NCBI RefSeq assembly: GCF_009914755.1
Contig: NC_060927.1
Reading direction: 5' to 3' (one strand)
Source: the human T2T-CHM13v2.0 reference genome, Homo sapiens
Length of the DNA stretch: 64,000 bases
The first letter of the stretch is position 1; each line of letters starts with the position of its first letter. Of the stretch, positions 44,710 to 60,272 are shown one piece after another. The notes under the pieces were generated by a model. The model did not search any database. It was not told where the DNA came from and saw only the letters and a program-made list of their open reading frames with translations. A program made the position numbers and the translations under genes.

Positions 44710-44950
44710 GTAATAACAACTAATTACTATATGAAGCTAGAACTTGTATAGTACTAACATGTGCCAGGCATTGTTCTATGTACTTTGTATATACAACACA
44801 TCTACCCTCACAAAACCTGTGTGAAGAAACTGAGTCACAAAAAGCTCATTTTACTTATCCAATATCTCACAATTAGAAGTATCAGAGACTGGAACTGGAC
44901 CTAGTTAATGTGGCCCTCAAATCCCTACTCTTAACCACCATACTATATTA
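44710..44950 (-). mobile_element. MIR
   Basis: ATGTGCCAGGCATTGTTCTATGTACTTT; GAAGAAACTGAGTCACA; ACTCTTAACCACCATACTATA. Confidence 0.75.
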
Positions 44951-56897: not shown

Positions 56898-57571
56898 CAC
56901 TTTGCTTTCAAACTCTACTCCTTCCAATCCATTCTTTATTCGGAGTCTACTTCTTGAAATCACCTATGGCTTTCAATTACACTTAGAAACAATAAAATAA
57001 ATTCCAAAGTTTGCCTTGTGTTTAAAGCCCTACAACATTGTTCAACAGGTGGATGTCCAGATTAGAAGCATCAGTATCACCTGGGAACTTGTAAAAAGTA
57101 CAATCTGTTTCTGTAACACTCTCCTGTTTCGCTCAAGTACAAAAACCACTCCTCTACATGATTAATTAACTGTCCAACTGCTCTGCCCTCATTTTATGTC
57201 TCTATTTTTTTATTGCCCTAGAGCCATAGTTATTTCCTTTTGTCTTTTTGAACAGGCTAAATCAGGTCCAGTTTAAAGCACTTGGAGTATCTGTTTCCTC
57301 TGCCTGAGGAAATCCTTCTTTGGTATTTCTATGGTTCCTCTCTATTTTCACGTCTCCAATCAAATTTCACTCTCTTCAAACATTTTTTTCCATACTCCAG
57401 TCTAAGCAACCTTGTTCCACTGCTTGCGTCTTTTCCTATCCCCTCGTTCCATTTATTTTCCTTGCAGTTGCTTACCATTTTCTGAAATTACCTTGAGCAC
57501 CCATTGGTTGACCATTTTTATGTATTCCCTTCCCCCCTTTAAAATATAAGATTCAAGAAACAAGAACTTCT

Positions 57572-57899
57572 TGTTCTTGTGATAGTTTACTGAGAATGAT
57601 GATTTCCAATTTCATCCATGTCCCTACAAAGGACTTGAACTCAGCATTTTTTATGGCTGCATAGTATTCCATGGTGTATATGTGCCACATTTTCTTAATC
57701 CATTGTTGGACATTTGGGTTGGCTCCAAGTCTTTGCTATTGTGAATAATGCCACAATAAACATACGTGTGCATGTGTCTTTATAGCAGCATGATTTATAG
57801 TCCTTTGGGTATATACCCAGTAATGGGATGGCTGGGTCAAATGGTATTTCTAGTTCTAGATCCCTGAGGAATCGCCACACTGACTTCCACAATGGTTGA
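57572..57899 (-). mobile_element. Inverted L1PA2/3 segment (ORF2 C-terminus) of a twin-primed insertion
   Basis: Minus-strand ORF WKSVWRFLRDLELEIPFDPAIPLLGIYPKDYKSCCYKDTCTRMFI is the L1 ORF2p C-terminus; 8-bp deletion near 57702. Confidence 0.95.
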
Positions 57900-58142
57900 T
57901 ATTCTCACTTATCGGTGGGAATTGAACAATGGGATCACATGGACACAGGAAGGGGAACATCACACTCTGGGGACTGTTGTTGGGTGGGGGGAGGCGGGAG
58001 GGATACCACTGGGAGATATGCCTAATGCTGGATGATGAGTTAGTGGGTGCAGCGCACCAGCATGGCACATGTATACATATGTAACTAACCTGCACAATGT
58101 GCACATGTACCCTAAAACTTAAAGTATAATAATTTAAAAAAA
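57900..58142 (+). mobile_element. L1PA2/3 3' end, sense part of the same insertion
   Basis: ATATTCTCAC...GGGAATTGAACAATG...GAGTTAGTGGGTGCAGCGCACCAGCATGGCACATG...CCTGCACAATGTGCACATGTACCCTAAAACTTAAAGTATAAT; GAG rather than ACA at the Ta position. Confidence 0.95.
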
Positions 58143-58181
58143 GACAGTAGATATATTAAAAGAAAATAAAAATAAAAAAAA

Positions 58182-58371
58182 TAAAAGAGCATGGCAACCC
58201 TCCCTTTCTCTCTTGCTCCTTCTCTCACCATGTGACATGCCTGCTCCCCCTTTGCCTTCTGCCACAAATAAAAGCTTCCTGAGGCCTCACCAGAAGCTGA
58301 GCAAATGCTGGTGCCATGCTTGTAGAGTCTGCAAAACCTTAAGCCAAATAAACCTCTTTTCTTTATAAATT
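58182..58371 (+). mobile_element. MSTA/MSTB LTR fragment carried as an L1 3' transduction
   Basis: TAAAAGAGCATGGCA...CCATGTGA...AAGCTTCCTGAGGCCTCACCAGAAGC...GCCAAATAAACCTCTTTTCTTTATAAATT, then an A tail and the TSD. Confidence 0.88.
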
Positions 58372-60272
58372 AAAAAAAAAGAAAGAAACAAGAACTTCTA
58401 TATCAACAGTCTCTATAACAGTGCCAGACACATAGGATAATGGGTATCTAAGTGTTCATAATTATATTTCAATACATTTTATGTATATATAGTTACATGA
58501 AAACTTAATTACAAATATCTTTCGACACTGAGCATCATTTAGAACACCCCCTATTAAAGCCATCTTCTAGTATAATTGAGAAACTAGATGACCATTCCCA
58601 AATCAGATCTGCTGGCATTGTTGCTCTGACTTTCTTCCATTTGTTTTCTATTCTTCCTTAGGCAATGTCTTTCTTTGTCCTCTTCAACTCATGAGCTGAA
58701 GTTCACAAGAGATACACCTCTGCAGCTTCTAAAAGGGCTTCCAACATGCATTTCCTGGGGCTTTTCATAGGGCAGGCTATCTTTTCTAGATTGCCCTTTA
58801 CTTTTATTCACAGCATCCATATGCTGCAGGTATTGATGTGCCATATTGATGTGCCATACTTTATTAATGAGAAAGAAAGTATTGCCACAAATGCGGTAAA
58901 GAGATTTTAAATTACACTCTTTATATAGATTTTCATCTAATCTGAACAAAAACCTCAAGAAAATAAATAGTTATGGAAGAGAACTTTATGGATGCACCCA
59001 GTTCCTAAGCTAATTTCTTTGTCCTCAAGTTCACTGTCTTCTTTGCAACTGCTCATCTTGTATCTTAGTGCAAATTTCTAACAACATTTTGAGGAACCCC
59101 ATAAGGGCTGAGTTTACCCCCAAGTGCAATTTCCTTCCCTAATCAGTGCATCCTACCAAGCGGTCTCTAGTAGAATTTATTCTCCAAAGGAGACAAGGGC
59201 AGCATTTCTGAGCCTGCTTCCCTTCAAGGTCTCCCAACTAGATATTTTTTATTATTGTCATTGTTGTTGATATTGTTATACCTTAAGTGTTTCTGGTTTC
59301 TTTGTAGAAAGTATTAGACATGAAAATGGAGGTGGACTTTGGCTGGCGGGCTTCAGTGAGGAAGCCACTGCTGGTAGGCCACATTTAGTTACAGAGCTAG
59401 AAAATTAATTTTAAGTTCACAACTTTACATTGGCTTTCCATTTGAATATATTATTGCTATACATTTTTTAAAAGTAAATCTTCCTTGACCACCAAGATAT
59501 TATACTCCATTGACAGTTACTTAAATCATTTCTCTTACCAGAATATAATTTTTGTGTCTAGGTGGCTAAGATATCAGTAGTGAAAGGAATGTTTAGGTGG
59601 CCATTTTAGTCACTCCTTTTAGGGTTGAGAAACTGAAGCCCAGTGAGAATTTCAAAAACAATACATATATAGCACATTTTCCCGTTGTTTGTATGGAAAA
59701 AATAATACCTGGAGGAGGTACATAGTCAGAGTTAAAAGAAGGTTATAAGTTTCAGTGATTAGAACATAAGATAAAGAGCAAAACAAATGTGTATATTACC
59801 CAATCCATCAATACATTTAGTAATTTTGTCTTACAAAAATACTCACAGAATTGCAGAAAATACCTTTAAGAATATTCATTGCAGTGTGATGGGCATATTG
59901 CAACATAGGAATAAACCATATAGCAATTAATGAAATAATGAGTAAATTATTGGATAAAGAAATATGGAATAATAAAACCCTCAAAAGAATATGTATAGAT
60001 AATTTTACATGTAATGTATTGTTAGGTAAAAAGTAGATTGCATCACAGAACAAGATATATAGCATTATTACACTAAATAATGTGTGCATACATACAAACA
60101 TGTAAGAGTTCATATGATCTATGTGTATGTGTACAGGAAAAGGTCTCAGAGAACATATGGGAACATACAAATGCTATTATTTTCTTTTTATTGAAAAGTG
60201 AATTTGTGTATGATGAAGTTTACAGTCTTCCATATTTTTTAAAAAATATATTCCATTAGAATGTATTTATTT

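What the first reader, a model, noticed from the sequence alone, without database searches (positions are those of the whole stretch)
57555..58399. One L1PA2/3 insertion combining a twin-priming inversion and a 3' transduction ended by an MST LTR polyA signal
Seen: a perfect 17-bp TSD AAGAAACAAGAACTTCT (57555-57571 and 58383-58399) brackets, in order, an antisense L1 ORF2 end (57572-57899), a sense L1 3' UTR (57900-58142), an A-rich spacer, about 190 bp of MST LTR, and A9GA. About 17 nt of L1 (AAAAACCAAACACCGCA) are missing at the inversion junction. The MST piece stops about 19 nt after its own AATAAA (58347-58352). The whole cassette interrupts an L2 3' end. Established: this inversion geometry is twin priming, and 3' transductions come from read-through of the weak L1 polyA signal. 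Inference: the donor was a full-length L1 inside an MST LTR, integrated at the LTR's T/A-rich TAAAAG, and it borrowed the LTR's polyA site. The L1's own end reads AATAATTT, with no AATAAA. The MST tag should identify the source locus.
Basis: partly seen in the sequence, partly recalled or inferred. Interest (0 to 1): 0.8.

Follow-up and report, generated by a model that had tools for sequence, protein, structure and literature searches.

The report
Inverted L1 carrying a borrowed LTR tail
This is one L1 jumping-gene insertion that flipped part of itself as it landed and carried 191 bases of an old LTR from another place on chromosome 3, which is a well-documented and ordinary kind of event.

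Summary
A perfect 17-bp target-site duplication brackets an inverted L1 ORF2 end, a sense L1 3' end, a 46-nt A-rich spacer, 191 nt of a MaLR/MST-type LTR and a short poly(A). Exactly 17 nt of L1 are missing between the two L1 pieces.

The LTR piece has one near-identical match in T2T-CHM13, at chr3:123,098,677-123,098,867 on the minus strand (190 of 191 bases). All other copies scored are 90% identical or less, so the piece was copied in and is not an old local resident.

At the source, homology starts at the LTR's only TTAAAA (an L1 endonuclease TTTT/AA site). It ends 19-20 nt after AATAAA.

The source LTR is uninterrupted in CHM13, so no donor L1 is present there. I found no sibling insertion and no second copy of the spacer tag.

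Best reading (about 0.8): one L1 retrotransposition with twin priming and a 3' transduction, from a donor allele absent from this genome. Main rival (about 0.12): a template-switch chimera of an LTR-terminated RNA and an L1 RNA.

The same architecture is already tabulated for dozens of polymorphic human L1s. Interest is low.

The parts
57555..57571 (+). 5' target-site duplication, AAGAAACAAGAACTTCT
   Evidence: Perfect 17/17 with 58383-58399. The bases outside it differ (c versus a), so it cannot be extended.
57572..57899 (-). Inverted L1 piece (C-terminal ORF2 region). Its L1-3'-most end abuts the 5' TSD. It carries an 8-nt deletion between 57702 and 57703.
   Evidence: 96% identical to genomic L1 copies, 328 versus 336 nt. 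Aligns to L064 5213-5552, just 3' of the 1107-aa endonuclease/reverse-transcriptase ORF of a full-length L1.
57900..58135 (+). Sense L1 piece: the last ORF2 codons (by recall) plus the 3' UTR, ending AATAATTT with no AATAAA or ATTAAA
   Evidence: 95-96% to genomic L1 3' ends. Polyadenylation-signal comparison with 34 copies.
58136..58181 (+). A-rich spacer: A7, then GACAGTAGATATATT, then A4GA4TA5TA8. It is most simply the donor L1's interrupted poly(A) tail. The 15-nt non-A core is unexplained.
   Evidence: Read. The 27- and 31-nt tag patterns are unique to the window in CHM13 at up to 3 mismatches. No match within about 33 kb of the source locus. It contains ATTAAA at 58155 and AATAAA at 58165, 58171 and 58180.
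58182..58372 (+). Transduced piece of a MaLR/MST-type LTR (family name by recall), copied from chr3:123,098,677-123,098,867 minus strand. AATAAA used at 58347-58352; the single difference is G at 58325.
   Evidence: 190/191 identical to the source, next best 90%. The source LTR is continuous across the start point. The window base at 58325 is the derived one: C in 15 of 19 other aligned copies.
58372..58382 (+). Terminal poly(A), A9GA. The first A is shared with the source.
58383..58399 (+). 3' target-site duplication

Best explanation
This is one L1 retrotransposition event.

Inferred donor: an L1PA element older than L1HS sat in sense orientation inside a MaLR/MST-type LTR at what is now chr3:123,098,867/8 of CHM13. 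It had been inserted at the LTR's TTTT/AA endonuclease site.

Inferred RNA: its transcript ran past the L1 end, which lacks AATAAA, and through its interrupted poly(A) tail. It was cleaved at the LTR's own polyadenylation site 191 nt downstream.

Shown by the anatomy: that RNA was reverse-transcribed at chr3:86,361,555, at window position 57555. The bottom strand primed on the new poly(A) and copied the LTR piece, the spacer and about 236 nt of L1. The top-strand 3' end primed internally 17 nt further upstream on the same RNA and copied 328 nt in the opposite sense. This is twin priming. The two cDNAs were joined almost blunt at 57899/57900, and a 17-bp TSD was left.

The donor allele is not in CHM13. 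I infer that it was polymorphic and was lost, or that it is still polymorphic.
For: - A single perfect 17-bp TSD brackets everything.
- The L1 pieces are contiguous in L1 apart from a 17-nt gap, in 33 of 34 reference copies. Their orientation and order are those of twin priming.
- A 17-nt gap is typical. In 132 of 287 inverted L1s the two cDNA ends lie within 20 bp of each other (PMC12016303, passages read).
- The LTR piece is 190/191 identical to one locus. The next best of the 40 scored (of 5822 first-look candidates) is 90%.
- At the source, the homology starts at the only TTAAAA in the 427-nt LTR.
- The same homologous site holds an independent Alu plus poly(A) in 1 of 18 other LTR loci examined (L014). 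So it is a site that the L1 endonuclease actually uses.
- Homology ends 19-20 nt after AATAAA, where the window has poly(A) and the source continues as LTR.
- An A-rich tract separates the L1 from the LTR piece, as expected for a donor's own tail. Interrupted first tails also appear in published rows.
- The window's L1 end lacks AATAAA and ATTAAA, whereas 28 of 34 relatives have one.
Against: - No L1 lies at the source site in CHM13. The LTR aligns continuously across the point with 17 of 18 other loci.
- The only L1 nearby starts about 490 bp downstream and is only 93-94% identical, so it is not the donor.
- No sibling carries the LTR tag or the spacer tag.
- No genomic L1 shares the 8 private 3' UTR substitutions. 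The best identity is 95-96%.
- The start at TAAAAG would also suit annealing of a nascent T-rich cDNA to a poly(A) tail, so it does not exclude template switching.
- There is mild tension in dating. One difference in 191 nt over two lineages is fewer than expected if the insertion were as old as the private load of its L1 relatives suggests (mean 1.4%). The Poisson P(<=1) is 0.03 at 1.4%, and 0.08 to 0.003 over 1.1-2.1%.
- The RNA bypassed five earlier AATAAA or ATTAAA hexamers.
Confidence: 0.8

Rival explanations
1. Template-switch or RNA-ligation chimera. L1 reverse transcriptase started on the poly(A) of a cellular RNA that ended at this LTR's polyadenylation site and copied 191 nt. At the A-run TAAAAG it then jumped to the poly(A) tail of a separate L1 RNA. 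No L1 ever sat in the source LTR.
For: The source LTR is an empty site in CHM13. No siblings were found. The switch point is an A-run that could pair with a tail. L1 chimeras made by template switching or RNA ligation are documented, within single TSD pairs and at TT/AAAA sites (PMC13174262, passages read).
Against: - Documented chimeras in that paper carry the foreign RNA on the 5' side of the L1, not 3' of its tail.
- The breakpoint falls on the one TTAAAA of a 427-nt LTR. That site is proven to be used by L1 endonuclease in another copy. This is expected under transduction and is a coincidence here.
- The L1 part, with its private variants and unique tail, is also absent from CHM13. So a missing donor has to be assumed under this model too.
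- 3' transductions are far commoner: 466 of 5311 polymorphic L1 insertions carry a transduction, 82.2% of them 3' (PMC12350158, section read).
Confidence: 0.12
2. Retrocopy of a spliced or read-through host transcript that contained an old L1 3' end as an exon, joined to an acceptor-like ...tttaaaAG|AGCATGG inside the LTR.
For: The LTR sequence before the start point, cttgttgtttaaaag, resembles a weak 3' splice site by my own reading. Spliced L1-host RNAs are known on the 5' side.
Against: The putative upstream exon (L1 end plus tag) does not exist anywhere in CHM13 at up to 3 mismatches, nor within about 33 kb of the source. The shared TAAAAG would have to match by chance.
Confidence: 0.03
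3. Two separate events, or a resident LTR fragment: an old MST fragment was already at this locus and an L1 landed beside it. Alternatively, a DNA-level duplication moved the LTR piece.
For: None beyond adjacency.
Against: - One TSD pair encloses both, and neither part has its own TSD.
- The piece is 99.5% identical to a single paralogue, in a family whose copies are otherwise 76-90% alike.
- The piece ends in poly(A) exactly at the LTR's cleavage site. That points to an RNA intermediate and not to a DNA copy.
Confidence: 0.02

Closest known systems
L1 3' transduction: read-through of the L1 polyadenylation signal, with flanking DNA carried to the new site. First descriptions are recalled, not read here. 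Population data come from PMC12350158, section read.
   Same: The order is L1 3' end, first poly(A), unique non-L1 sequence, second poly(A), all inside one TSD pair. The carried sequence maps to one other locus and ends a canonical distance after AATAAA.
   Different: The progenitor L1 is not present at the source in this assembly, and no sibling shares the tag. The carried sequence is itself a repeat (an LTR), so it is recognisable only because of its 99.5% identity to one copy.
Twin-priming 5' inversion of L1 (Ostertag and Kazazian 2001: seen only in reference lists, and the paper was not held). Features taken from PMC12016303.
   Same: The inverted upstream piece is next to the 5' TSD and the sense piece is next to the poly(A). 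The gap is small (17 nt). The internal joint is almost blunt.
   Different: Only 1 nt (3 of the last 4) of the top-strand 3' end is complementary to the RNA at the priming site. Instead, 8 nt of the TSD are identical to the L1 RNA just 5' of that site.
[quoted passage not shown]
   Same: The architecture is exactly the same. In the held part of the table there are 27 occurrences with DEL and 9 with DUP at the inversion. The file was cut when stored.
   Different: Those are young, polymorphic insertions, mostly traced to known source elements. This one is an older L1PA copy in the reference genome.
L1 chimeric insertions by template switching or RNA ligation, such as U6/L1 and mRNA/L1 (PMC13174262)
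   Same: Two RNAs are joined in the same orientation inside one TSD pair.
   Different: There the partner RNA sits 5' of a truncated L1. Here the non-L1 part sits 3' of a complete L1 end with its tail.

Membership tests
L1 insertion by target-primed reverse transcription | Sequence homology to L1 ORF2 and 3' UTR | tested here: met
   95-96% to many genomic copies. 93-94% to the 3' end of a full-length element with Transposase_22 (E 1.5e-63), Exo_endo_phos (1.8e-10) and RVT_1 (9.6e-48). Pfam found nothing in the two short window peptides themselves.
L1 insertion by target-primed reverse transcription | Target-site duplication and a 3' poly(A) | tested here: met
   17/17 TSD. A9GA directly before the 3' TSD.
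L1 insertion by target-primed reverse transcription | Endonuclease-type first-strand nick site (TTTT/A, TTTT/G or TTTC/A as used in PMC12016303) | tested here: inconclusive
   The bottom strand reads 5'-GTTTCTT/GAATC. It is T-rich but TCTT/G is not one of the three listed motifs. Only 63% of germline L1s in that paper show a listed motif.
Twin-priming inversion | The upstream L1 piece is inverted and abuts the 5' TSD by its L1-3' end. The downstream piece is in sense and ends in poly(A). One TSD pair encloses both. | tested here: met
Twin-priming inversion | Small gap or overlap between the two cDNAs on the L1 map | tested here: met
   17-nt gap in 33 of 34 reference copies. Within the published range.
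Twin-priming inversion | Complementarity of the top-strand 3' end to the L1 RNA at the internal priming site | tested here: inconclusive
   One unambiguous nt. TTCT-3' against AAAA pairs at 3 of 4 positions.
L1 3' transduction | Non-L1 sequence lies between the L1 tail and a second poly(A), inside the TSDs, and maps to one other locus | tested here: met
   190/191 to chr3:123,098,677-867 minus strand. Next best 90%.
L1 3' transduction | The carried segment ends at a polyadenylation site of the source flank | tested here: met
   AATAAA at 58347-58352, end at 58371/2. The source continues ATCCAGCC....
L1 3' transduction | At the source, the segment begins directly 3' of a sense-oriented full-length L1 | tested here: inconclusive
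   There is no L1 there in CHM13. One haploid genome cannot exclude a lost or polymorphic donor allele. The start point is a perfect TTTT/AA site, the only TTAAAA in the LTR, and the same site is used by an Alu in another copy.
L1 3' transduction | Other offspring or the progenitor share the tag | tested here: not met
   No second 99% LTR copy among the 40 scored of 5822 candidates. The spacer tag is unique at up to 3 mismatches. This is supportive when present but is not required.
MaLR / MST LTR | Membership of a high-copy LTR family with a polyadenylation signal near its 3' end; subfamily assignment | not testable with these tools
It is a high-copy repeat with 5822 first-look candidates. The 427-nt unit is shared at 76-85% with 18 other loci. 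No repeat library was available.
L2 (context of the insertion) | The flanks belong to one L2 3' end that is continuous across the empty site | tested here: inconclusive
   A recalled L2/MIR motif hits 58418-58435 with 2 mismatches and 0 expected by chance. The search with the left flank returned only itself.

The most novel reading that the evidence does not exclude
The place on the L1 RNA where the inversion was primed may not have been random. Eight nt of the target duplication (ACAAGAAC, 57560-57567) are identical to the L1 RNA immediately 5' of the internal priming site. The bottom-strand overhang could therefore have base-paired with the RNA there and tethered it at the break. The first cDNA stops 17 nt before this point, and the second cDNA starts right beside it. 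If this is general, homology between the target and the RNA, and not only complementarity of the top-strand end, would help to set twin-priming sites.
Probability: 0.12. Interest if true: 0.45.

Novelty: already known. Interest (0 to 1): 0.13.

Why it matters
It matters little. The locus is a clean, fully resolved textbook example of twin priming combined with a 3' transduction, in gene-poor DNA with no functional annotation nearby.

Two things were not obvious from the sequence alone. The transduction tag points to chr3:123.10 Mb, and that site is empty in CHM13. So the tag is the only trace, in this genome, of a progenitor L1 allele that has otherwise vanished. This illustrates how transduction tags can record extinct or polymorphic source elements, and it gives a direct handle for dating the event in ape genomes.

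Tried and rejected
- Nearby full-length L1 as donor. It starts about 490 bp downstream of the source LTR, not upstream. It is only 94.4% and 93.2% identical to the window's L1 pieces. Rejected.
- Serial transduction as the origin of the spacer core GACAGTAGATATATT... No other genomic copy of 27- or 31-nt patterns at up to 3 mismatches, and none within about 33 kb of the source. Not supported, and the core stays unexplained.
- Siblings or orphan transductions with the LTR tag. None among the 40 scored of 5822 candidates.
- Closest L1 relatives that share the 8 private 3' UTR substitutions. None, with best identity 95-96%.
- Insertion-associated hypermutation near the inversion joint. All 8 private substitutions of the sense piece lie in its first 131 nt. 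Fisher's test of sense against inverted piece gives P = 0.02. But unbiased relatives carry a similar load in this region (about 5 per 232 nt) and show a 96:56 split between the same two halves. Not compelling.
- L2 continuity across the empty site. The genome search with the left flank found only itself.
- Pfam on the two ORF2-like peptides of the inverted piece gave no family. A first attempt on raw frames failed on stop codons.
- Published tables. No row near chr3:123,098,xxx or chr3:86,361,5xx-86,362,4xx in the held supplements of PMC12350158. The spreadsheet was cut when stored, and the L1 source-element catalogue (Table 19) is not in the held part. This says nothing either way.
- The Genome Biology 2003 paper on L1 transduced sequences and the twin-priming paper were not held.
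Full report
**What is there**

The window sequence and the repeat scan confirm a perfect 17-bp direct repeat, AAGAAACAAGAACTTCT, at 57555-57571 and 58383-58399. The only other direct repeats of 12 nt or more in 57300-58700 are A-rich.

Between the two copies lie, in order:
- 57572-57899, antisense L1;
- 57900-58135, sense L1, ending ...AAAGTATAATAATTT;
- 58136-58181, an A-rich spacer (A7, GACAGTAGATATATT, A4GA4TA5TA8);
- 58182-58372, LTR sequence;
- A9GA.

**L1 identity and the inversion**

Both L1 pieces hit very many genomic copies. The best non-self identity is 96% for the inverted piece (40 scored of 1109 first-look candidates). It is 95-96% for the sense piece (40 scored of 3225).

I aligned 34 of the fetched copies. 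In 33 of 34, exactly 17 nt separate the end of the inverted piece from the start of the sense piece. In 23 of 34 those bases read AAAAACCAAACACCGCA.

The inverted piece carries an 8-nt deletion between 57702 and 57703.

The window pieces align at 94.4% and 93.2% to the 3' terminus of a full-length element at chr3:123.09 Mb. The open frames of that element carry Transposase_22, Exo_endo_phos and RVT_1. L1 membership therefore rests on tools and not only on recall.

The inverted piece touches the 5' TSD with its L1-3'-most end. The sense piece runs to the tail. This is the twin-priming geometry. A 17-nt gap is ordinary: in 132 of 287 inverted L1s the two cDNA ends lie within 20 bp of each other (PMC12016303, passages read).

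Complementarity of the top-strand 3' end to the RNA is weak, at 1 nt, or 3 of the last 4. The 57899/57900 joint is essentially blunt.

**Subfamily and age**

At the triplet that separates Ta (ACA) and pre-Ta (ACG) elements, the window has GAG within GATGATGAGTTAG. The diagnostics are as stated in the Methods of PMC12350158. So this is not L1HS Ta or pre-Ta.

The window shares the GTTGTG and GCACTGG variants with the group of relatives that has the higher private divergence. From this I infer an L1PA3-like lineage. 'L1PA2/3' is acceptable but not proven, because no repeat library was available.

Against the majority of the 34 relatives, the window has these private differences:
- inverted piece: 1-2 private non-CpG substitutions, 2 CpG changes and the 8-nt deletion, in 328 nt;
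- sense piece: 8 fully private substitutions in 232 nt.

The relatives themselves carry a mean of 1.4% private differences.

**The LTR piece and its source**

I searched CHM13 with 58143-58382. Apart from the window itself, there was one 99% match, at chr3:123,098,677-123,098,867 on the minus strand. Every other scored copy was 82-90% identical (40 scored of 5822 candidates).

Base by base the match is 190/191 over window 58182-58372. The one difference is G at 58325. That base is derived in the window, since 15 of 19 other aligned copies have C like the source.

The source LTR is about 427 nt long. It aligns continuously across the start point with 17 of 18 other family loci, at 76-85% identity. 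This has two consequences. The LTR at the source is intact. And the 99.5% identity cannot be old family resemblance, so the piece was copied from that locus.

No such genomes were available here.

**The two boundaries of the copied piece**

Homology begins at ...GTTGTT|TAAAAGAGC. This is the only TTAAAA in the LTR. On the opposite strand it reads CTCTTTT/AAAC, a perfect TTTT/AA endonuclease site.

In one of the 18 other loci (L014, chr6), a 5'-truncated Alu with its poly(A) sits at exactly the homologous site. The L1 machinery therefore does use this motif.

Homology ends at ...TTTATAAATT(A), 19-20 nt after AATAAA at 58347-58352. There the window has poly(A) and the source continues into the rest of the LTR.

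An L1 endonuclease site at one end and an RNA cleavage site at the other are what a 3' transduction from an L1 inserted at that TTAAAA predicts.

**What is missing**

The donor is not there. In CHM13 the LTR is uninterrupted.

The nearest L1 is a full-length copy that starts about 490 bp downstream, in the same orientation. It is only 93-94% identical and cannot have been the donor.

I found no sibling with the LTR tag. The spacer tag is unique in the genome at up to 3 mismatches, apart from two 3-mismatch hits at control level. No L1 copy shares the window's private 3' UTR variants.

I therefore infer, and have not shown, that the donor allele was polymorphic and was lost, or is still polymorphic. 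In the long-read survey I read, source elements are annotated by presence or absence in the reference (PMC12350158, Fig. 4 legend). A progenitor missing from one assembly is therefore an expected case.

**Points against the simple story**

Among 34 relatives, 23 have AATAAA at the L1 end, 5 have ATTAAA and 6 have neither; the window has neither. But the RNA also passed ATTAAA at 58155 and AATAAA at 58165, 58171, 58180 and 58267 before the site it used.
- One difference in 191 CpG-free bases over two lineages is fewer than expected if the event were as old as the relatives' private load suggests. Poisson P(<=1) is 0.03 at 1.4% per lineage, and 0.08 to 0.003 over 1.1-2.1%. Within the window lineage alone, however, 10/560 against 1/191 is not significant (P = 0.31). 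Part of the L1's private changes may predate the event.
- The TAAAAG start would also suit a template switch onto a poly(A) tail.

**Rivals**

A template-switch or ligation chimera is the only serious rival (about 0.12). In this model an LTR-terminated cellular RNA is copied first and the enzyme then jumps to an L1 RNA. It explains the empty source site. But it makes the coincidence with the single TTAAAA accidental. It still needs an L1 RNA source that is absent from CHM13. And the chimeras described in the paper I read have the partner RNA 5' of the L1 (PMC13174262, passages).

A spliced host transcript (about 0.03) fails because the L1-plus-tag 'exon' exists nowhere in CHM13.

Independent insertions, a resident fragment or a DNA-level copy (about 0.02) fail on three counts: the single TSD, the poly(A) at the LTR's cleavage site and the 99.5% identity.

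**Comparison with what is known**

- 3' transductions accompany 8.8% of polymorphic human L1 insertions (466 of 5311, 82.2% of them 3'). The same study reports 1,047 twin-priming inversions (PMC12350158).
- Twin priming affects 18.4% of germline L1 polymorphisms, 165 of 897 (PMC12016303).
[quoted passage not shown] The DUP variant occurs 9 times. The file was cut when stored, so these are lower bounds.

The kind is therefore already known. Only the particular link between source and offspring may be new, and no search here can show whether it is in print.

**Verdict**

My confidence in twin priming plus 3' transduction from a now-absent donor is about 0.8. Interest is 0.13.

Noticed in passing
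window 57560-57580: ACAAGAAC inside the 5' TSD is identical to the L1 sequence just 5' of the internal priming site. The product therefore carries an 8-bp perfect palindrome (ACAAGAAC / GTTCTTGT) with a 5-nt loop at the junction between the TSD and the inverted L1. In a 5,050-nt reference L1, only 0.16% of possible priming sites have an 8-mer of this TSD ending within 3 nt. This was noticed post hoc, so the real significance is weaker.
   Followed up: partly
L014 1210-1520 (chr6:109.996 Mb): Another copy of the same LTR family carries a 5'-truncated Alu plus A13 at exactly the homologous GTTAAAA|GAG site. This is an independent L1-endonuclease hit on the motif where the window's transduced piece begins.
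   Followed up: yes
window 57900-58030: All 8 fully private substitutions of the sense L1 piece lie in its first 131 nt, next to the inversion joint. None lies in the following 100 nt. Relatives show a 96:56 split over the same halves. This is mild clustering of unknown cause.
   Followed up: partly
L064 4950-10000 / L002 1-1010 (chr3:123,092,150-123,098,186, minus strand): A full-length L1 lies about 490 bp downstream of the source LTR in the same orientation. It has a 1107-aa stop-to-stop frame with endonuclease and reverse-transcriptase domains and a 208-aa ORF1 frame. It is not the donor (93-94% identity).
   Followed up: partly
window 58143-58157: The 15-nt non-A core GACAGTAGATATATT in the spacer has no identifiable origin in CHM13.
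   Followed up: yes
window 57702/57703: An 8-nt deletion in the inverted L1 piece relative to all 34 reference copies.
   Followed up: no
window 44757-44774: A second, weaker match (3 mismatches, minus strand) to the recalled L2/MIR motif. It is presumably another old MIR or L2 fragment.
   Followed up: no
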